A stretch of 39,630 nucleotides of DNA from the IMG/VR virus record IMGVR_UViG_3300045988_044422, one strand, 5' to 3'. This stretch comes from a virus. Below are positions 3,490 through 14,209 of the stretch, piece by piece (positions within the stretch are counted from its first letter, which is position 1; each line of letters opens with the position of its first letter). The position numbers were made by a program, and so were the translations under genes. The notes under the pieces were generated by a model. It saw only the letters and a list, made by a program, of their open reading frames with translations, was not told where the DNA came from and ran no database searches.

Positions 3490-4746
3490 ATGGCAAGGCT
3501 TTATGTAGCAGACAAAGAAACGCTTGACGCTGTGAAGGCTGACACAACAGGAATACTGGCACAGCTTCAGGATAAAGATGGAAAATTCAGCAATGTCAAG
3601 CGATATGGAATCAAGATCAACAAGGCTGACAGCAATCCTGACACGCGCATCACATATCTGTATGACGCAGCAGGATTCACGCCAGCAAAGATGAACTTCA
3701 CAGACGGATCATTCGACTTCGGTTCATGGGGCGAAGTGTTCTTCATTAAGCAGAACAGACCAGTCATGCTGAAGGCAGACAGAACAGTTGCGTATGAGTT
3801 AAACCACACAGACCATTCAAAGAAGCTGGACGGCACTGCATCCGATGTCGGGGACGCATCAACGACACTGAATGCGATGTCTGAATTTCCTTTGATGTGG
3901 CTGTGCCAGTACGAAGTCGGAAACTATGAATATATCATCGTATCTGACACAAGAGTTGACAGCAACTACAACGCAGATGCATACACAAGAGAAGATGGAA
4001 GCGTTGCAGATCATATGTACATGCCTATGTACGGCGGCAGCTATGACGGCGCGAAACTGCGCAGCTTGTCAGGAAAGAAACTGGACTGCAACACGAACGC
4101 ACAGACAGAGATCAGCAGGGCAGCAGCAAACGGAACAGGCTGGACGATCATTTCATGGAGCAGAAGAAACTTGATCGAAAGCCTTCTGACATTGATCAGC
4201 AAGTCTGAAAACTATCAGGCGAAGTTCGGTCAGGGCGTATGTAGCACATATGTCAATGATTCATCAAAAGACTACGGAAAAGTTGTGACAGGAACACTGG
4301 ACACAAAAGGGCAGTTCTTCGGCTATAATGACGGAACACATGAAGTGAAAGTGTTCTATTGCGAAAAGCCATGGGGAAACCGCTGGGACAGACTTGTGGG
4401 CTATATCTGCGACAACGGAACAATCAAAGTGAAGATGTCGCCGCCTTATAACCTGACAGGAAAAGACTACATAAAAGTCGGAACAGCGTGCAAGACAGAA
4501 GGATGGCAGAAAGACACATTGATGACGCGCTATGGACGATTTGTCAAATCTGTCGGCGGCAGTGCTTCGACATATCGTTGTTGTTATTACTGGATCAACG
4601 TGACGATCGTTGCGGTCGCGCTTGTCGGCGGTCACACCAGCAACGGCGCGAACTGCGGTGCTTGCGTCAGCTTGAACAGCACTGCTGCGAATGCGTATTG
4701 GAACGTCGGTGGCTCGCCTTCTTGCGAAGAACCTTTGGCGGCATAG
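3490..4746 (+). CDS. DGR target protein: putative receptor-binding tail fibre protein with C-terminal variable region
   Basis: 418 aa. The last ~40 codons contain VR (4608-4715). WGNRWDRLVGY and the C-terminal GG...W..GG pattern are compatible with a C-type-lectin/Mtd-like fold. The gene lies in the fibre module. Confidence 0.85.
   Translation: MARLYVADKETLDAVKADTTGILAQLQDKDGKFSNVKRYGIKINKADSNPDTRITYLYDAAGFTPAKMNFTDGSFDFGSWGEVFFIKQNRPVMLKADRTVAYELNHTDHSKKLDGTASDVGDASTTLNAMSEFPLMWLCQYEVGNYEYIIVSDTRVDSNYNADAYTREDGSVADHMYMPMYGGSYDGAKLRSLSGKKLDCNTNAQTEISRAAANGTGWTIISWSRRNLIESLLTLISKSENYQAKFGQGVCSTYVNDSSKDYGKVVTGTLDTKGQFFGYNDGTHEVKVFYCEKPWGNRWDRLVGYICDNGTIKVKMSPPYNLTGKDYIKVGTACKTEGWQKDTLMTRYGRFVKSVGGSASTYRCCYYWINVTIVAVALVGGHTSNGANCGACVSLNSTAANAYWNVGGSPSCEEPLAA
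4608..4715 (+). repeat. DGR variable repeat (VR)
   Basis: 108 bp aligned without gaps to 4843-4950 (offset 235). There are 8 mismatches, and 7 correspond to TR adenines. Confidence 0.9.
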
Positions 4747-4760
4747 CCGCACAGGGGGAC

Positions 4761-4778
4761 AGGGGGAGCAATCCCCCT
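4761..4778 (+). promoter_or_regulatory. Hairpin downstream of VR (candidate DGR target-recognition hairpin/cruciform)
   Basis: Perfect 7-bp stem AGGGGGA/TCCCCCT with a GCAA (GNRA) loop. It lies 15 nt after the target stop codon and has no following U-tract. Confidence 0.55.
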
Positions 4779-4842
4779 TGAAGTGTAAGTAAAAAGAAAA
4801 ATTAAATAATAGGGATATTGTGTGCGCCTTCCGATGCTTCTG

Positions 4843-4950
4843 CGTTGCGGTCGCGCTTGTCGGCGGTAACACCAACAACGGCGCGAACTGCGGTGCTTAC
4901 GTCAACTTGAACAACACTGCTTCGAATGCGAATTGGAACATCGGTGGCTC
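4843..4950 (+). repeat. DGR template repeat (TR)
   Basis: Non-coding copy of VR. It holds 24 adenines and, read in the target frame, 8 AAC and 2 AAT codons. The invariant-looking copy sits 141 bp upstream of the RT. Confidence 0.9.
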
Positions 4951-5091
4951 TCACTCTTAACAATCATGGGACAATAACCTAATGCACACGATATTCCGCG
5001 CCACTTGGCGAAAGTTAAACCGAAGAAAGGGTTGTGCTAGTAGGGCGAAAGCCGTGAACGTGCAACAGGTGTTAAGAAGGAAACCTTTTGA
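4843..5091 (+). ncRNA. Probable DGR RNA (TR plus spacer preceding the RT)
   Basis: No credible ORF here. TR is followed by a 141-nt spacer. The spacer has a GAAA-capped helix (5044-5053) nested in an imperfect helix (5031-5066). The organisation matches TR-spacer RNAs of known DGRs. Confidence 0.5.
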
Positions 5092-6453
5092 ATGAAGACA
5101 TATAAACATATATTTGAAGAATTGCTGAAAGAAGAAAACATCACACAATGTTTTCACGATGCAGCAAAGCGCAAGACGACACGTCCCGAAGTCGCCAGAG
5201 TGCTGAAGGAAGAAAGAGAAGTCGGAAACGACAGACCTGAACCGCAATGTCTTCAGGAACATGTGAAAGCACTTCAAAAAATGCTGGAAGAAGAAACATA
5301 TCAACCACCAGAACATAAAAAGATGCTGATAAACGAATATAGCTGCGGAAAGGTCAGGGAAATCATAAAACCTGAATTTCAGTATGAACAGGTCGTGCAT
5401 CATTGCATCATAAAACAGCTTCAACCGATCGTACTTCATGGACTATATGAACACGCACTGGGAAGCATACCGAACAGAGGTTGTCACAGCGGAAAGAAGC
5501 AAGTTGAAAAGTGGATAAAAGGATATAAGGGAAAGAAGTTCTATATCCTGAAGGCAGATGTCCGACACTGCTTCGATACAGAAGACATTCGCGTAATTGA
5601 AACAAAGCTGAAACGCGTGATTAAAGACGAAAGATTTGTCAGATTATGCAGCACAGTCATGGAGCATGAAGCGACAATGAAGCCACCTGAATTTGATCGG
5701 GAATGGATCGAGGACGAACAATGGAAAGATACTGAATTTTTATCAGGACTTCCGCTTGGGTTCGTGACTTCACAATGGTTCACACAGCTGAACTATAAAG
5801 AACTTGATCATAAAATTGTTGAAGAGTGGAAGGAACTGGGCGGCGTTGACCATTCAATTCGATACGCGGACGACATTGTTGCGTTCGGAAGAAACAAAAA
5901 GAAACTTCACAGACTGAAAGATGTTATGTCGGAATATATGAAAAATGAAATGAATCAGAAAATCAAATACAACTGGCAAGTGTTCCGTTTTGAATATCCC
6001 GACAGGAAAGCACCGCCAGTCATTGACAAGAAGACAGGAAAAGAGAAACCGAAGACCAGAGGGCGTGCGCTGGACTTCATGGGATTTGTATTTCATTACA
6101 ATCGCACAACGCTTCGCAAATCAATCCTGAAGCGTGCGACAAAGAAGGCGCACAGAATCGCAAAGAAAGAGAAAGTCAACTGGTATGATGCTTCAGCAAT
6201 GCTGGCATCAATGGGCTGGTTTACACATACGGACACTTATGGCTTTTATGAAGATCATATCAAGCCATATGTCAATATAAAGCAACTGAAAAAGAAAGTC
6301 AGCAAGCATTCAAAGAAAGGAGTGAAGAACAATGATGTCAGAATGGTATCAGTCAGAAAGCATGGACAAGCCGACAGAGTGGGACACGACATCAAGCCCG
6401 ACAGTGGTCTATCAGCGAAAGAACATCGCAGAGCAGATCAGGAAGGGCATTGA
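5092..6453 (+). CDS. DGR-type reverse transcriptase
   Basis: Contains RYADDIVAFG (YxDD), the DGR-diagnostic LGxxxSQ motif (LPLGFVTSQ), GSIPNRGCHSG and KADVRHCFD. It lies directly downstream of TR. The lysine-rich C-terminal tail overlaps the next gene by 122 nt. Confidence 0.9.
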   Translation: MKTYKHIFEELLKEENITQCFHDAAKRKTTRPEVARVLKEEREVGNDRPEPQCLQEHVKALQKMLEEETYQPPEHKKMLINEYSCGKVREIIKPEFQYEQVVHHCIIKQLQPIVLHGLYEHALGSIPNRGCHSGKKQVEKWIKGYKGKKFYILKADVRHCFDTEDIRVIETKLKRVIKDERFVRLCSTVMEHEATMKPPEFDREWIEDEQWKDTEFLSGLPLGFVTSQWFTQLNYKELDHKIVEEWKELGGVDHSIRYADDIVAFGRNKKKLHRLKDVMSEYMKNEMNQKIKYNWQVFRFEYPDRKAPPVIDKKTGKEKPKTRGRALDFMGFVFHYNRTTLRKSILKRATKKAHRIAKKEKVNWYDASAMLASMGWFTHTDTYGFYEDHIKPYVNIKQLKKKVSKHSKKGVKNNDVRMVSVRKHGQADRVGHDIKPDSGLSAKEHRRADQEGH

Positions 6454-10109: not shown

Positions 10110-11498
10110 TCATAAAAAATGAATGTCCATGCTTCCATCTTCGTATACCAGCACCGATTCAACAAAAGACTTCCAGAAGACGTTCTTTTCCTGATTGCTG
10201 AATGTGCCGTATACAGCTTCCCAGTTTTCGTTCAGCAGCTTGCGGACGCTGTCGAGATTGCGGACAGGGGCAGCAGGACACTTCTGAAGTTCTTCGATCT
10301 GCTTTTTGAATTTATCGTATTCACTTCTATATGCGTTTTTATCAATTAAGTCATCCATAAACAAATCATACAGCTTCTTGATCTTGCGTTCGATCTTCGA
10401 TATTTCTTCAACAGGATTCTTTCGCACTGCGCTGGCAGCAGTAACTTCATACTTCGCAACATAGTCGGACAAAGCTGGTCTGATATGGTTCAGCATGTAT
10501 TCTTCAACATATTCTTCACGATAAGACCGCCCACGATCACACAGCTTCGATTGCGCCCTGAAGTTGCAACGATAGCTTTTATATGCTTTTTCTGTGCCGT
10601 CTGCCATTTTCCTATATGTAACAGTGCCAGTCATAATGTGATTGCAGGACGAACAGATCAGAAGACCTGAAAAAATATAGAATTGCTGCGTGTGCCTGAT
10701 CCGAACATTCCTGATCGCAAGTTTCTGGATGCGTTCAAAGCGTTCAGGACTGATTGTCGCAGGACAAAAGTCAGGATCATCGCGATACTGACCTTTGAAA
10801 AGCGGATTCTTCAGGTATCGTGCAACTGTATCATAGCAGACACGAATGTTGTATTTGTTCTGAAGAAAAAGCTGCGTGTCACGTTTGCTGCATGTAGCTT
10901 CAAAGCGGTCAAACATATCAAGTGCAAAGCAGTTCCATTCGGGATCAATGATGACATGCTTTTCTGCATCCAGCTTCAGACCGCGTGGAAGGCTGCCTGA
11001 CACATAGGTTTTATTCTTCAGCTTATAAGCGAACACATCTTTGATTCGGTCAGAATCACGATCACATTCATCCTGTGCAACAGACAGACGAATGTTGATG
11101 TGCAGTCTTCCGTTCGTGGTTGTGGTATCATAGTTTTCTGTGACAGCCTTCCACTGCACACCATTAGCTTCAAGTATTTCCTGAATTTTATGATAATCGC
11201 CGATATTCCTGAACCATCGGTCAAGTTTGGTAAATATGATCAGGTCGAAAGCATGAGCCTTCACACCAGAAAGAAGTCTGACAAACTCTTTTCGTTTGTT
11301 GAACTTCTTTCTTGCTGTCAGGGCTTCGTCAATGAATGTGTCAACAAGTATCATCCGATTCACTTTGATGAAATCTTCAAGAATCAGATCTTGCGCTTCA
11401 AGCGTATCGCCATGAAGCACCTGATCATCGTGGCTGCATCTGATATATTTAACTACACGAAGCCCGAAAAGTTGTGGGTTTGGAGTAAAAAAAGACAT
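10110..11498 (-). CDS. int: Large serine recombinase (integrase)
   Basis: Resolvase-type N-terminus YIRCSHDDQ (catalytic Ser) and FTKLDRWFRN. Recombinase domain and Zn-ribbon CSSCNH...YRC follow. 462 aa. Confidence 0.85.
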   Translation of the reverse strand: MSFFTPNPQLFGLRVVKYIRCSHDDQVLHGDTLEAQDLILEDFIKVNRMILVDTFIDEALTARKKFNKRKEFVRLLSGVKAHAFDLIIFTKLDRWFRNIGDYHKIQEILEANGVQWKAVTENYDTTTTNGRLHINIRLSVAQDECDRDSDRIKDVFAYKLKNKTYVSGSLPRGLKLDAEKHVIIDPEWNCFALDMFDRFEATCSKRDTQLFLQNKYNIRVCYDTVARYLKNPLFKGQYRDDPDFCPATISPERFERIQKLAIRNVRIRHTQQFYIFSGLLICSSCNHIMTGTVTYRKMADGTEKAYKSYRCNFRAQSKLCDRGRSYREEYVEEYMLNHIRPALSDYVAKYEVTAASAVRKNPVEEISKIERKIKKLYDLFMDDLIDKNAYRSEYDKFKKQIEELQKCPAAPVRNLDSVRKLLNENWEAVYGTFSNQEKNVFWKSFVESVLVYEDGSMDIHFL

Positions 11499-11530
11499 AT
11501 AAAAACCTTCTTTCTGGTAGCGAAAGAAGG
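11499..11530 (-). promoter_or_regulatory. Perfect 9-bp hairpin + U-run that contains the integrase Shine-Dalgarno
   Basis: On the int strand the sequence reads CCTTCTTTC-gctacca-GAAAGAAGG-TTTTTAT-ATG. The 3' arm is the only SD-like sequence for int. Confidence 0.6.
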
Positions 11531-11611
11531 CTTAATATGATAGAATGTAAAAGGACATAATATCATCGTGGGCGGTCTTCCGCGATATATTTTGTTTCAA
11601 TGTTTCGCAAG

Positions 11612-11643
11612 GGAAGTCGCTGGTCACGGCTTCCTTTTTATTT
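11612..11643 (+). terminator. Orphan rho-independent terminator (+ strand) with no upstream + strand gene
   Basis: Stem GGAAGTCG/CGGCTTCC (one G.U pair), 7-nt loop, then TTTTTATTT. Confidence 0.6.
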
Positions 11644-11693
11644 GAATAGAGTGCCTGAAGCGTGTGCATAATCTAAACTAGGAGGATGACGCA

Positions 11694-11891
11694 ATGGAAA
11701 TCCTGACGTGGCAGGCACGAACAGACAGACACTTGACCTTGAAGCAGTTGGAAGCCTTGACAGGAATCAGCAAGTCAACGCTGAACACGATTGAAAACGG
11801 CATCACATCGCCAACACTGCGCCAGCTTGAAGCGATAGCAGCTGCACTTGATGTCAAGATCACTGATCTGTTTGATTCTGAATATAAATGA
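11694..11891 (+). CDS. XRE-family helix-turn-helix transcriptional regulator (65 aa)
   Basis: LTLKQLEALTGISKSTLNTIENGITSPTLRQLEAIAAAL is a canonical Cro/CI-type HTH. AGGAGG RBS. Confidence 0.8.
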   Translation: MEILTWQARTDRHLTLKQLEALTGISKSTLNTIENGITSPTLRQLEAIAAALDVKITDLFDSEYK

Positions 11892-12012
11892 TAAACTGTG
11901 CGCCGACAATGCTTCTGACGCTTATTTCCTGATATATGGAAATAACTGGAAGCGGTCTTTCATTCCAATAATTTCCATGATACAATCCCGACAAGAGAAG
12001 GGAGGGAAGCAG

Positions 12013-12111
12013 ATGATCCGAAAGAGAATCAACACGCTTCTGAATAAGTTGTCGGATGCACAGCTGAAGCGCATATATAAATACATAAAGTATGTATACA
12101 TACACGGATAA
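12013..12111 (+). CDS. 32-aa basic peptide MIRKRINTLLNKLSDAQLKRIYKYIKYVYIHG
   Basis: Strong GGGAGGGA RBS 7 nt upstream of the ATG. An extended -10-like TGATACAAT lies at 11978-11986. A terminator follows directly. Confidence 0.4.
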   Translation: MIRKRINTLLNKLSDAQLKRIYKYIKYVYIHG

Positions 12112-12113
12112 AG

Positions 12114-12159
12114 CAAAAGGAAGTAGGACTGGTCAGGTCACTGCTTCCTTTTGTTTTGC
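12114..12159. terminator. Terminator hairpin between convergent genes
   Basis: 10-bp stem CAAAAGGAAG/CTTCCTTTTG (12114-12123 / 12144-12153), then TTTT on the + strand. The 3' arm overlaps the last codons of the - strand exonuclease gene. Confidence 0.6.
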
Positions 12160-12905
12160 TTAAATTCTTTATATGCTTTATGACGCTTGAAACCAAAATA
12201 TAAAAGCAACGCAGCAATCACAACACACACAGGATTGAAAGCAACGAAGAAACCTAACAGCATAAAAATACCGAAGCCGATCAGAATATTTCCGCTTTTA
12301 GGAATTGGAACAACTTCAACAGGCTTTTGATCTTCATGCTTAATAATATTATCAACCGAACGATAAACGCCAGTCGCATACACAGGAACTTCAGGAACAT
12401 CGCCGAAGATTTTATAAAAGCAGAATAGTGTTGCTTTTGCATCGTCAAGCGCATTGTGCCAGCTGTCTTCGCTATATGAATAAAATTCTGCACATGTCTT
12501 CAGCTTTTGCCATTTATATTCGTTGTAACGCTTTTGCCCATAAATTTCAGCAAATGCAAGCATTACATCAACGACAATAGAATTTTCTTTTGCATGATAT
12601 TCAATGCCAGAATTAAATATAAAAGGCAAATCGAAGCCGTGAATGTTATAACCGACAATCATGTCTGCATTTTCTAAAATGCGTTGAATAGTATGTGCAT
12701 AATATAAAAGCGGCTTACAGTCTTTTACCATTGAAGGGCTTATGTGGTTTACTTTTTCAGCATCAGTCCAGCATTCGTGATGAACAGGCTTCACATGTTC
12801 ACTGAAAAGGATTGCACCAGAGCCGTCAATAATAGAAAGCTGAAGAATTTCATCGTCATAGTGATTCAGTCCTGTTGTTTCTGTATCAAGACAAATAATG
12901 TTCAA
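12138..12905 (-). CDS. DnaQ-like DEDDh 3'-5' exonuclease with C-terminal transmembrane anchor
   Basis: ExoI CLDTETTG, ExoII GYNIHGFDLPF, ExoIII HNALDDAKAT. The C-terminal hydrophobic stretch GNILIGFGIFMLLGFFVAFNPVCVVIAALLLYFGF forms 1-2 TM segments, followed by a KRK tail. TTG 12905 with an AAAGGAAG RBS is the preferred start. The ORF is open back to 12941. Confidence 0.75.
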   Translation of the reverse strand: MNIICLDTETTGLNHYDDEILQLSIIDGSGAILFSEHVKPVHHECWTDAEKVNHISPSMVKDCKPLLYYAHTIQRILENADMIVGYNIHGFDLPFIFNSGIEYHAKENSIVVDVMLAFAEIYGQKRYNEYKWQKLKTCAEFYSYSEDSWHNALDDAKATLFCFYKIFGDVPEVPVYATGVYRSVDNIIKHEDQKPVEVVPIPKSGNILIGFGIFMLLGFFVAFNPVCVVIAALLLYFGFKRHKAYKEFKQNKRKQ

Positions 12906-12918
12906 TAGATCACTTCCT

Positions 12919-13296
12919 TTATTCAGTTTTATCCCAACCAACCTTCTTGACTAGCTGCTTCATATATTCTTTGATTCGTTCACGGCTTCCAGCTGGTAAA
13001 GACACATACATTTCAACAAGTGCCTTGTCAAAATCGTTCAAATCATACTGCGCACACAATTCATCAACGATTGTCTGCGGAAGGTCGTCAAACATTTCCC
13101 CTTCGCCATACATTAAATAATCATAATTCACATTGTATTCACGACAGATAGAAATTGCCATCTGATCAGTTAAGTTGTTCACACCTTTTTCGATTCTGGA
13201 AATAGTGGTTTTTGTTACACCTAACTTTTCCCCGAACTTTTCAAGAGTTAAACCAAGTGATTTTCGCACTTCGTTGACGCGTTCGCCATTTGTCAT
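12919..13296 (-). CDS. CI-like XRE-family repressor (125 aa)
   Basis: Starts at ATG 13296 with an AAGGTGGA RBS. HTH segment LTLEKFGEKLGVTKTTISRIEKGVNNL. It is divergent from the early operon. The longer 206-aa ORF extension is rejected. Confidence 0.8.
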   Translation of the reverse strand: MTNGERVNEVRKSLGLTLEKFGEKLGVTKTTISRIEKGVNNLTDQMAISICREYNVNYDYLMYGEGEMFDDLPQTIVDELCAQYDLNDFDKALVEMYVSLPAGSRERIKEYMKQLVKKVGWDKTE

Positions 13297-13335
13297 ATTT
13301 ATTCCACCTTTCTGTATATTTGCTTTTCTGATTGT

Positions 13336-13364
13336 AGAATAACACGACAGCAAGCAAAGGTCAA
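13336..13364 (-). promoter_or_regulatory. Candidate leftward (repressor maintenance) promoter
   Basis: On the - strand: TTGACC, 17 nt, TATTCT. It lies about 35-40 nt upstream of the repressor ATG. Confidence 0.45.
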
Positions 13365-13374
13365 TAAAAAAGTT

Positions 13375-13437
13375 ACCGTAAGCAACAAAAAACTGTTGAC
13401 AAAGTGACTGTAAGCATCTATACTGTAACTGTAAGCA
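13375..13437. repeat. Three direct copies of AC(C/T)GTAAGCA: putative repressor operators
   Basis: Copies at 13375-13384, 13407-13416 (inside the early promoter spacer) and 13428-13437 (just after the -10). Confidence 0.55.
13396..13424 (+). promoter_or_regulatory. Candidate rightward early promoter
   Basis: TTGACA (13396-13401), exactly 17 nt, TATACT (13419-13424). Confidence 0.6.
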
Positions 13438-13738
13438 ACAGAAGAAAGCAGGAAGAACGGATGAAGCGAGAGGGCGGCACGCAAGTGACATGGCGGTCAG
13501 GCTGTACGATAACAGACAGAGCGTGTGCAGAATAAACATGATCCGTCAAAGTAGTTGAAGAAAGCAGGAACATCAGGACAAGAAAGCAAAGTGTTCATAC
13601 TACTGGAAGAAAATGAACAGGTTGAGCCGATCAACACTTTACTCCTTAAACAAGAAGATGTTAAGCGGAAGAATCAATCGCGCGAGATGACACAGCACTT
13701 CTGTTTCTTACATTAAAAACCAGAAGGGAGCAGACAAG

Positions 13739-14209
13739 ATGAACGCAACAGTATCAACAAGGAAAAGAGCATGGCAGCTTGCAGACAAACTTTTTCCGAC
13801 AGATTACATGAAAGACGAACGCGACAGCCTTCGCGCTGGTTATCCAGTATTCAACACAACATCAACAGATGATAAATACACAGGCTTCCACATATCAGAC
13901 CTGAACACAGCACTTGAACTGAATATGGGAGCAGAAACAATCAGGATCAACATTGAGGATCAGGAAGCGGAGATCAAGAACAACTTCGACAAGCTGCTTC
14001 AGTATGTGAGCGACAAAAGAAAGTCAGCAGAACTTCACGAAAGACAGAAATACAACTATTACTGTGACAGACAGGCTGGCTGCTGGAACTGGACGAAGGA
14101 ACAGGATGAAGCATATCAGAAGGAATGGGACGACATCATCATTCAGATGCACGCATTGAAAGACCTTGAAAACGCGATGAACCTTGCAAGAACCAAAGGG
14201 ATCATATAA
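13739..14209 (+). CDS. Hypothetical early protein (156 aa)
   Basis: GAAGGGAG RBS. First sizeable ORF of the rightward operon. No motif recognised. Confidence 0.55.
   Translation: MNATVSTRKRAWQLADKLFPTDYMKDERDSLRAGYPVFNTTSTDDKYTGFHISDLNTALELNMGAETIRINIEDQEAEIKNNFDKLLQYVSDKRKSAELHERQKYNYYCDRQAGCWNWTKEQDEAYQKEWDDIIIQMHALKDLENAMNLARTKGII

What the first reader, a model, noticed from the sequence alone, without database searches (positions are those of the whole stretch)
12138..13296. Membrane-anchored DEDDh exonuclease co-transcribed with the CI-like repressor: candidate prophage-encoded defence or exclusion gene
The gene directly downstream of the repressor (13-nt gap, same strand, no intervening promoter or terminator seen) encodes a complete DnaQ-like exonuclease core. 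Its motifs are CLDTETTG, GYNIHGFDLPF and HNALDDAKAT. The core is fused to a C-terminal hydrophobic anchor (GNILIGFGIFMLLGFFVAFNPVCVVIAALLLYFGF) and a KRK tail.

The slot after the repressor is where temperate phages commonly carry lysogen-expressed exclusion or abortive-infection genes, as with rexAB in lambda. A nuclease tethered to the inner face of the membrane is well placed to attack incoming DNA ends. I do not recognise this exonuclease-plus-TM architecture as a described defence system.
Basis: inference. Interest (0 to 1): 0.65.

Follow-up and report, generated by a model that had tools for sequence, protein, structure and literature searches.

The report
Membrane-tethered exonuclease cargo in a prophage
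A gut-bacterium prophage carries, right after its repressor gene, a swappable accessory gene for a DNA-end-chewing enzyme tied to the inner face of the cell membrane; it is most likely a guard against incoming foreign DNA, but this has not been tested.

Summary
On the minus strand, a 125-aa HTH repressor (12919-13296) is followed after 13 nt by a 255-aa gene (12138-12905). That gene encodes an intact DEDDh 3'-5' exonuclease core, a variable linker, a two-helix hydrophobic hairpin and a basic tail.

The window is a temperate siphovirus of gut Lachnospiraceae. It has no DNA polymerase.

Comparative evidence favours an accessory, lysogen-expressed role:
- Near-identical phages replace exactly this gene with an unrelated 110-aa ORF.
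- In relatives the repressor-integrase slot holds other cargo, mostly membrane-associated.
- GC3 is 0.32, against about 0.5 for the structural genes.
- Every anchored homologue whose context I read lies between a repressor and a serine integrase.
- The same anchor also carries a HIRAN-like head, a fold known to bind DNA 3' ends, in the same slot.

I conclude it is most likely a membrane-tethered nuclease acting on 3' ends of DNA entering the cell. Superinfecting phage DNA is the likeliest target and transforming DNA the main rival. This parallels SNIPE, Mpr and eukaryotic TREX1, but it belongs to none of them.

Function, expression and localisation remain untested. I rate it a new variant of a known kind, of moderate interest.

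The parts
13372..13443 (.). Three operator-like direct repeats (GTnACnGTAAGCAnC) in the switch region between the divergent promoters
   Evidence: the repeat finder family D1, copies at 13372, 13404 and 13425
13336..13364 (-). Promoter-like site upstream of the repressor (TTGACC, 17 nt, TATTCT, with TG); candidate maintenance promoter for the repressor-exonuclease operon
   Evidence: Consensus scan; function is inferred
13396..13424 (+). Divergent promoter-like site (TTGACA, 17 nt, TATACT; 11 of 12 matches) facing the early genes
   Evidence: Consensus scan
12919..13296 (-). CI-like HTH repressor, 125 aa, with no S24 peptidase and no ImmA partner
   Evidence: Pfam HTH_3 E 2e-14; PHROG 8 and 4, transcriptional regulator/repressor; NCBIfam RstR/DicA-type hits below cut-off
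12906..12918 (-). 13-nt spacer containing the RBS AGGAAG (12913-12918), 7 nt before the TTG start
   Evidence: Read directly from the sequence
12396..12905 (-). DEDDh 3'-5' exonuclease core (aa 1-170); catalytic residues D7, E9, D92, H150, D155
   Evidence: Pfam RNase_T, PADLOC DEDDh, PHROG 192; residue conservation; AF2 pLDDT mostly above 85; Foldseek to the DinG exonuclease domain, TREX1 homologue, PolC exonuclease, epsilon, RNase T and ExoX
12291..12395 (-). Variable linker (aa 171-205); length and sequence vary among homologues
   Evidence: Alignment A1 columns about 190-260; AF2 pLDDT below 50 at residues 189-198
12189..12290 (-). Hydrophobic helical hairpin (aa 206-239), broken at N223-P224; predicted membrane anchor
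   Evidence: Hydropathy; AF2 helices 206-222 and 225-254; pattern conserved in homologues
12138..12188 (-). Basic C-terminal tail KRHKAYKEFKQNKRKQ plus the stop codon
   Evidence: 8 K/R in 16 residues; by the positive-inside rule it should be cytoplasmic (inference)
12114..12153 (.). Hairpin followed by a T-rich run, lying between the convergent exonuclease gene and the plus-strand 32-aa ORF. It is a likely bidirectional terminator and marks the 3' boundary of the swappable cassette.
   Evidence: RNA fold; homology with the L023 backbone resumes at 12152

Best explanation
The gene is an accessory 'moron' cargo of the prophage lysogeny module.

Expression (inferred). It is transcribed with the repressor in the lysogen.

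Product. An active DEDDh 3'-5' exonuclease is held at the cytoplasmic face of the membrane. A two-helix hairpin with both ends inside anchors it, and a flexible linker of about 35 residues connects head and anchor.

Proposed mechanism (inferred). The tether keeps the nuclease away from the nucleoid. It also places the enzyme where foreign linear DNA emerges into the cytoplasm. There it attacks free 3' ends, most probably those of a superinfecting phage genome during injection. This would give entry-stage exclusion without killing the cell. The circular chromosome and the integrated prophage offer no free 3' ends near the membrane.

Shown here: the domain, the catalytic residues, the predicted anchor, dispensability for the phage, the cassette boundaries, the conserved position, and head-swapping on a common anchor.

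Inferred only: expression, localisation, DNA as the substrate, and protection.
For: 1. Intact enzyme. The DEDDh core scores above curated cut-offs, with conserved catalytic residues and matching folds.

2. Membrane anchoring.
- The anchor pattern and its basic flanks are conserved while the linker varies.
- At least three unrelated C-terminal anchors, and also N-terminal anchors, recur on this exonuclease clade.
- The N-terminally anchored relative P0048 has the charge distribution expected for a cytoplasmic catalytic domain.

3. Accessory status.
- Among 23 IMG/VR phages whose integrase is at least 92% identical, 17 carry the gene and 6 carry a 110-aa ORF instead.
- Homology with the alternative backbone stops at the repressor stop codon and resumes 14 nt before the exonuclease stop.
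- More distant relatives carry other cargo in the slot: TM2+SWIM proteins, a K+ channel, lipoproteins, a DEDDh+BRCT protein, or nothing.
- GC3 is 0.316, against 0.49-0.53 for structural genes.

4. Conserved position. The gene lies between a repressor and a serine integrase in all contexts read, including homologues with different anchors.

5. Head swapping.
- A family of about 190-aa proteins carries a different head on the same linker and anchor in the same slot.
- DNA identity between an exonuclease allele and such an allele (96%) begins exactly at the anchor.
- That head's only credible Foldseek matches are HIRAN domains, including HLTF HIRAN bound to DNA. From established knowledge, HIRAN binds DNA 3' ends. 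Both heads therefore point at 3' ends.

6. No replication partner. There is no DNA polymerase in the phage.

7. Mechanistic precedents. SNIPE cuts phage DNA during injection, and its membrane anchor prevents self-damage. Mpr is a membrane-anchored 3'-5' exonuclease that needs both the anchor and the nuclease activity for defence.
Against: - There are no expression, localisation, biochemical or phage-challenge data.
- DEDDh enzymes can be RNases or dinucleotidases, so DNA as substrate is assumed.
- The hairpin helices have only about 14-17 hydrophobic residues. It may be a monotopic hairpin rather than a spanning one. No dedicated topology predictor was available.
- PADLOC matches are at domain level only.
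- Soluble relatives sit in conjugative-element regions beside SSB, ParB and ArdC, where an establishment or anti-defence role is more natural.
- One related phage (L058) has a soluble DEDDh+BRCT protein in the slot, so anchoring is not universal.
- One allele (L060) has lost three catalytic residues.
- All anchored members whose context I read belong to one broad group of prophages with large serine integrases (about 460 or 555 aa). Linkage could therefore partly reflect shared ancestry.
Confidence: 0.45

Rival explanations
1. Anti-transformation ('anti-curing') factor. The tethered 3'-5' exonuclease destroys single-stranded DNA as it leaves the competence channel. This stops homologous recombination from deleting the prophage.
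For: From established knowledge, transforming ssDNA enters Gram-positive cells 3' end first, which matches a 3'-5' exonuclease and a HIRAN-like 3'-end binder. PMC12637031 documents conflict between pneumococcal prophages and transformation. [quoted passage not shown]
Against: Natural competence of the Lachnospiraceae hosts is unknown. thaL was not functionally tested in that paper. Nothing in the window links the gene to competence.
Confidence: 0.2
2. Input or modulator of the lysis-lysogeny switch. The membrane protein senses DNA or envelope events and tunes prophage induction or burst timing, rather than excluding foreign DNA.
For: The repressor has no S24 peptidase and no ImmA partner, so another induction route is needed. 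In L063 the position just after the repressor holds an ImmA-type protease. Lysogeny-module surface proteins SzaL and SpaL modulate activation of pneumococcal prophages.
Against: Near-isogenic phages lack the gene, and some relatives have an empty slot. A conserved active nuclease site is not expected of a sensor. No interaction motif with the repressor is evident.
Confidence: 0.12
3. Counter-defence or nucleic-acid housekeeping for the element itself, for example removal of signalling oligonucleotides, nanoRNAs or DNA fragments. Soluble relatives on conjugative elements may do this.
For: Relatives lie next to SSB, ParB and ArdC in leading-region-like contexts and on a plasmid that carries an AcrVA2-like gene. 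The DEDD superfamily includes dinucleotidases associated with mobile elements.
Against: The gene is in the repressor operon, not the early lytic operon. A membrane tether gives no obvious advantage against diffusible signals. The HIRAN-like alternative head points to DNA ends.
Confidence: 0.08
4. Proofreading subunit or replication exonuclease of the phage, as the PHROG label 'DNA polymerase exonuclease subunit' suggests.
For: PHROG 192 and NCBIfam epsilon/PolC-type hits.
Against: All NCBIfam hits are far below their cut-offs. The phage has no DNA polymerase; it has a rolling-circle-type initiator. The gene lies on the lysogeny strand and is membrane-anchored. It is absent from near-identical phages.
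Confidence: 0.02

Closest known systems
SNIPE (E. coli; bioRxiv 10.1101/2025.11.03.685801)
   Same: A constitutively membrane-anchored nuclease with a cytoplasmic catalytic domain. It cleaves phage DNA during injection, and the anchor keeps it away from the host chromosome. This is the same proposed logic of spatial self/non-self discrimination.
   Different: SNIPE has an N-terminal single transmembrane segment, a DUF4041 domain and a GIY-YIG endonuclease. The protein here has a DEDDh exonuclease with a C-terminal hairpin and no DUF4041. SNIPE is chromosomal or defence-island encoded in Proteobacteria. This gene is prophage cargo in Clostridia.
Mpr of Mycobacterium smegmatis (PMC12596739)
   Same: A membrane-anchored, sequence-independent 3'-5' DNA exonuclease. 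Both the anchor and the nuclease activity are needed for non-abortive defence against phage D29.
   Different: The Mpr nuclease region resembles no known nuclease, and Mpr depends on a DUF4352 domain and GDP-sensitive oligomerisation. Neither feature was found here.
Mammalian TREX1
   Same: A DEDDh 3'-5' DNA exonuclease held on a membrane by a C-terminal anchor with its catalytic domain in the cytosol (abstract of PMC11904002). From my own knowledge, not checked here: loss of the anchor misdirects the enzyme, as in the C-terminally truncated disease form (the truncation itself is stated in the abstract of PMC12316019). Structures of a TREX1 homologue and of TREX2 are among the top Foldseek matches.
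   Different: Identity is only about 17-22% at the generic DEDDh-fold level. TREX1 is eukaryotic, attached to the endoplasmic reticulum by a single tail anchor. This is an analogy of architecture, not orthology.
Superinfection-exclusion and lysogen-expressed exclusion genes (lactococcal Sie2009, Ltp lipoproteins, lambda rexAB)
   Same: They occupy the lysogeny module next to the repressor and/or integrase. They are membrane-associated and are expressed from the prophage (established knowledge).
   Different: Those proteins have no nuclease domain. They act by blocking injection or by membrane depolarisation.
thaL of pneumococcal prophage phiRMV8 (PMC12637031)
   Same: It is described as a transmembrane HIRAN-domain protein in a lysogeny module. 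This matches the architecture of the alternative-head family found here.
   Different: I did not compare its sequence and its function is untested. It carries a HIRAN head, not an exonuclease head.
CRISPR-associated DEDDh (Cas2-DnaQ fusions; PADLOC model PDLC01247)
   Same: It is the best PADLOC hit (E 1.7e-25), and the DnaQ domain of the S. thermophilus protein is a top structural match.
   Different: There are no cas genes nearby; the neighbours are the repressor and the integrase. The match covers the generic exonuclease domain only.

Membership tests
DEDDh (DnaQ-like) 3'-5' exonuclease superfamily | Exo I (DxE), Exo II (D) and Exo III (Hx4D) motifs on an RNase H-like fold | tested here: met
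   D7/E9, D92 and H150/D155 are conserved in 27 sequences. Pfam RNase_T scores 54.2 bits against a cut-off of 24. Foldseek gives probability 1.0 to many DEDDh structures.
DEDDh (DnaQ-like) 3'-5' exonuclease superfamily | Metal-dependent 3'-5' exonuclease activity | not testable with these tools
   Requires a biochemical assay of the purified head domain.
Pol III epsilon / PolC proofreading exonuclease | Equivalog-level sequence match and a partner replicative polymerase | tested here: not met
   All NCBIfam epsilon/PolC hits score 37-43 bits against cut-offs of 236-1043. No polymerase-sized unassigned ORF exists in the window.
SNIPE | DUF4041 domain plus GIY-YIG nuclease, usually with an N-terminal membrane-targeting region | tested here: not met
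   Pfam finds only RNase_T-type domains. The architecture described is absent.
Mpr | C-terminal DUF4352 domain and an N-terminal anchor/nuclease region | tested here: not met
   No DUF4352 hit. The anchor is C-terminal.
CRISPR-associated DEDDh (Cas2-DnaQ) | Fusion to, or adjacency with, cas genes and a CRISPR array | tested here: not met
   The neighbours are the repressor, an HTH gene and the integrase, in the window and in all homologous loci.
PADLOC candidate PDC-S48 | Full-length match to the 411-position model | tested here: not met
   Only model positions 9-166 of 411 are matched, at E 8.7e-7.
Prophage lysogeny-module cargo (moron / exclusion gene) | Dispensable, replaceable cassette with deviant composition in a variable slot beside the repressor or integrase | tested here: met
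   Cassette swap with exact boundaries; slot variability in 42 loci; GC3 of 0.316 against about 0.5.
Prophage lysogeny-module cargo (moron / exclusion gene) | Expressed in the lysogen and protective against superinfection | not testable with these tools
   Needs lysogen RNA-seq and phage challenge. Only the operon layout supports expression.
Membrane-anchored protein with cytoplasmic catalytic domain | Transmembrane or hairpin segment with in/in topology | tested here: inconclusive
   Hydropathy 2.5, two AF2 helices, a basic C-terminal flank and no signal peptide. No dedicated topology predictor and no experiment were available.

The most novel reading that the evidence does not exclude
Gram-positive gut prophages carry a modular family of 'tethered 3'-end effectors'. 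One conserved membrane hairpin and flexible linker bears interchangeable heads: an active DEDDh exonuclease, a HIRAN-like 3'-end binder, and occasionally a catalytically dead exonuclease. These intercept the 3' end of DNA as it crosses the membrane. This would be a new, prophage-borne class of entry-stage immunity against phage DNA and/or transforming DNA. It would be mechanistically convergent with SNIPE, Mpr and eukaryotic TREX1.
Probability: 0.35. Interest if true: 0.75.

Novelty: new variant of a known kind. Interest (0 to 1): 0.55.

Why it matters
Entry-stage destruction of foreign DNA by membrane-bound nucleases has only just been shown experimentally, in E. coli (SNIPE) and in mycobacteria (Mpr). 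If this protein works that way, three things would follow:
- The principle would extend to an unrelated nuclease fold.
- It would extend to prophage-encoded immunity.
- It would extend to abundant but poorly studied gut Lachnospiraceae.

The head-swapping on a common tether gives a clean natural experiment. An exonuclease, a HIRAN-like head and a dead exonuclease all sit on the same anchor. This lets one ask what matters: cutting, or merely seizing, a DNA 3' end at the membrane.

The gene is also a compact single-gene candidate that is easy to test. The repressor-integrase slot of this phage group can be mined as a hotspot for further cargo.

Tried and rejected
- Nucleotide search of cultured-phage records with 11500-13800 found nothing.
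- tblastn of the protein against the same collection gave only partial, exonuclease-only matches of 40% identity or less. No hit covered the anchor.
- tblastn of the HIRAN-like protein gave nothing.
- A profile of the anchor alone (A3) against the large protein database returned only three fragments and no new head domains.
- Pfam does not recognise the HIRAN-like head. That assignment rests on Foldseek alone.
- A sequence-profile search of PDB with the exonuclease family found only a PolC exonuclease domain. With the HIRAN-like family it found nothing significant.
- Literature searches for DEDDh plus transmembrane plus anti-phage found no description of this architecture.
- The 12941 TTG start, which gives 267 aa and is used by some gene callers, was rejected. 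It overlaps the repressor and has no RBS, and homologues start at MNIIC.
- The proofreading-subunit reading was rejected (see rival explanations).
- A toxin-antitoxin reading of the repressor-exonuclease pair was considered and set aside. The HTH gene sits at a divergent-promoter switch with three operator-like repeats. It also stays in place when the cargo changes.
Full report
**What is in the sequence**

On the minus strand a 125-aa HTH protein is encoded at 12919-13296. Its stop codon TAA lies at 12919-12921. The reading frame runs to a stop at 12138 and gives a 255-aa protein. The longer mechanical ORF starting at 12941 overlaps the repressor and is not supported by homologues, which start at MNIICLDTETTG. 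All three quoted motifs, the hydrophobic stretch and the basic tail are present.

**The enzyme**
- The N-terminal 170 residues match Pfam RNase_T at 54 bits against a cut-off of 24. They also match PADLOC's DEDDh model (E 1.7e-25) and PHROG 192 (E 1.5e-36).
- In an alignment of 27 homologues with 41-79% identity, D7, E9, D92, H150 and D155 are invariant or nearly so.
- An AlphaFold2 model has mean pLDDT 85.8. It shows a confident exonuclease core, a low-confidence linker around residues 189-198, and two helices at 206-222 and 225-254.
- Foldseek places the core among DEDDh DNA exonucleases: the S. aureus DinG exonuclease domain, a TREX1 homologue, PolC exonuclease, the Cas2-associated DnaQ domain, epsilon, RNase T, ExoX and TREX2.
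- NCBIfam hits to epsilon and PolC models fall far below their cut-offs.

**The anchor**

The hydrophobic segment (aa 206-239) is interrupted by N223-P224 and is followed by 8 K/R in 16 residues. Many homologues also have KKKTGR immediately before it. The protein has no signal peptide; catalytic motif I starts at residue 4. Together these features point to a helical hairpin with both ends in the cytoplasm and the nuclease on the inner face of the membrane. This is a prediction from hydropathy, charge and the AF2 model. The helices are short, so a monotopic hairpin is also possible.

**The element**

The window is a temperate siphovirus, read in circular permutation. It has a large terminase, portal, major head protein and tape measure at 26.5-38.2 kb. 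Tail genes, a holin-like gene and an endolysin-like gene lie at 0-9.3 kb. A 462-aa serine integrase lies at 10110-11498. The phage also has a rolling-circle-type replication initiator, ParA and ParB-like proteins and a VRR-NUC nuclease. No ORF is large enough to be an unassigned DNA polymerase.

The region upstream of the repressor looks like a genetic switch. Two back-to-back promoter-like sites face opposite ways, and three operator-like repeats lie between and over them. No terminator-like site separates repressor and exonuclease. A hairpin at 12114-12153, followed by a T-rich run, comes directly after the exonuclease stop. It lies between that gene and a convergent 32-aa ORF.

Related genomes name the hosts as gut Clostridia: Hominisplanchenecus faecis and an uncultured Eubacterium. 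A 97%-identical fragment is deposited as 'DEDDh [Myoviridae sp. ctu6J18]'.

**Is it core or cargo?**

I fetched 42 IMG/VR loci through the integrase and annotated them with a script.
- Among the 23 loci whose integrase is at least 92% identical, 17 carry the exonuclease gene (one of them split). The other 6 carry an unrelated ORF of about 110 aa (PHROG 16443, function unknown).
- Between the window and one such phage, homology is 90% up to the repressor stop at 12919. It resumes at 95% from 12152, inside the terminator hairpin. The swap therefore removes exactly the spacer plus the exonuclease gene.
- More distant relatives fill the repressor-integrase interval with other cargo: a TM2+SWIM membrane protein (8 loci), a K+ channel, putative lipoproteins (one follows an ImmA-type protease), a soluble DEDDh+BRCT protein, or nothing.
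- The exonuclease gene has GC3 of 0.316, against 0.49-0.53 for structural genes.

The gene is therefore dispensable for replication and lysogeny. It behaves as a moron in a cargo hotspot that is rich in membrane proteins.

**Conservation of context**

Every anchored homologue whose context I read lies in the same place, either just downstream of an HTH repressor or just upstream of a large serine integrase at a prophage end. This holds for members whose C-terminal anchors are unrelated in sequence (P0028, P0031, P0228).

Among the 150 best representatives of the wider exonuclease clade:
- about 14-18 have C-terminal hydrophobic anchors;
- about 9-14 have N-terminal hydrophobic anchors;
- many have soluble extensions.

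One N-terminally anchored relative is chromosomal, lying next to guaA. Its charge distribution again predicts a cytoplasmic head. Soluble relatives lie on conjugative elements and plasmids beside SSB, ParA/B and ArdC. The clade as a whole is thus cargo of mobile elements, and it need not have one single role.

**Head swapping**

One related phage (L057) has a 188-aa protein in the slot that shares only the linker and anchor with the exonuclease protein. It defines a family of about 190-aa proteins. Members of this family occupy the identical position between repressor and integrase.

Some members carry anchors nearly identical to those of particular exonuclease alleles. At the DNA level, 96% identity between an exonuclease allele (L002) and such an allele (L073) begins exactly at the first codons of the anchor and continues into the integrase.

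The new head is confidently modelled, with most 10-residue blocks of the head above pLDDT 87. Its only credible Foldseek matches are HIRAN domains: L. plantarum lp_0118 and human HLTF HIRAN, including the DNA-bound form. These have probability 1.0, E 4e-4 to 5e-3 and target TM-scores of 0.52-0.62. All other hits fall below probability 0.21. Pfam does not detect the domain, so the assignment is moderate.

From established knowledge, HIRAN binds DNA 3' ends. Two different heads on one tether therefore both point at DNA 3' ends. In addition, one allele (L060) keeps the fold and anchor but has D7H, H150G and D155K. This hints that binding alone may sometimes suffice, or that this copy is decaying.

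**Mechanism proposed**

The best-supported reading is that the lysogen makes a nuclease tethered to the inner face of the membrane, which attacks free 3' ends of DNA entering the cell. The tether would serve two purposes. It restricts access to the chromosome, and it places the enzyme where foreign DNA appears.

This logic has been demonstrated for SNIPE. That protein is a membrane-bound GIY-YIG nuclease that cuts lambda DNA during injection, and its anchor-deleted form attacks the nucleoid. It has also been shown for Mpr, a membrane-anchored 3'-5' exonuclease that needs both anchor and nuclease activity. The closest architectural analogue is TREX1, a tail-anchored DEDDh DNase.

The protein here fails the defining features of SNIPE (DUF4041, GIY-YIG), of Mpr (DUF4352), of CRISPR-associated DEDDh (no cas genes) and of proofreading epsilon. 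It works like these systems by hypothesis, but it belongs to none of them.

**Rivals**
- The main rival is an anti-transformation role. Transforming ssDNA enters 3' end first. [quoted passage not shown]
- A role as an input to the lysis-lysogeny switch is possible. The repressor has no obvious induction partner, and ImmA occupies this position in one relative. However, the gene's dispensability and its active site argue against this.
- A counter-defence or housekeeping role fits the soluble relatives better than this anchored, repressor-linked form.
- A replication role is essentially excluded.

**Verdict**

Accessory status, the lysogeny-module position and a membrane-tethered active nuclease are all well supported computationally. 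Expression, localisation, substrate and protection are untested.

I found no published description of this DEDDh-plus-anchor family. The concept, however, has recent precedents, so I rate it a new variant of a known kind with moderate interest (0.55). The modular tether with exonuclease and HIRAN-like heads is the most interesting part and is directly testable.

Noticed in passing
window 3490-6453: A diversity-generating retroelement. The variable repeat (4608-4723) lies at the 3' end of a tail gene, the template repeat is at 4843-4958, and a reverse transcriptase is at 5092-6453. Eight of the 11 mismatches are template A changed to another base in the variable repeat.
   Followed up: partly
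L057 4263-4829; L073 4001-4588; proteins P0262-P0284: A family of about 190-aa proteins has a HIRAN-like head (Foldseek evidence only) on the same linker and membrane hairpin as the exonuclease. It occupies the same repressor-integrase slot. DNA homology with an exonuclease allele starts exactly at the anchor.
   Followed up: yes
L060 3592-4353: An exonuclease-anchor allele with D7H, H150G and D155K. The head is catalytically dead but the anchor is intact.
   Followed up: partly
L023, L045-L053, L055, L058, L059, L063 (interval between repressor and integrase): The slot is a cargo hotspot. It holds a 110-aa ORF (PHROG 16443), TM2+SWIM membrane proteins, a K+ channel with a TVGYGD filter, putative lipoproteins, a DEDDh+BRCT protein, or an ImmA-type protease followed by a lipoprotein.
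   Followed up: partly
window 11694-12111 (+): A 65-aa HTH gene and a 32-aa ORF with a strong RBS (12013-12111) converge on the exonuclease gene. Both stay in place whatever cargo is present. Their role, perhaps control of the integrase, is unknown.
   Followed up: no
L009-L011 (protein P0048); protein P0166: A chromosomal relative with an N-terminal membrane anchor lies directly after guaA in at least three contigs (8 carrying contigs were read). Another relative has the exonuclease, one transmembrane segment and a C-terminal domain of about 540 aa that is presumably outside the cell.
   Followed up: no
L064, L066, L068: Soluble relatives of the exonuclease lie on conjugative elements and plasmids, next to relaxase, SSB, ParA/B, ArdC-N and an AcrVA2-like gene. 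This suggests a different role, in establishment or anti-defence, for that branch.
   Followed up: no
L002 3148-4416; L003 1084-2352: Related prophages carry a 422-aa reverse transcriptase gene among the early genes, on the strand opposite the repressor. I did not examine it further.
   Followed up: no
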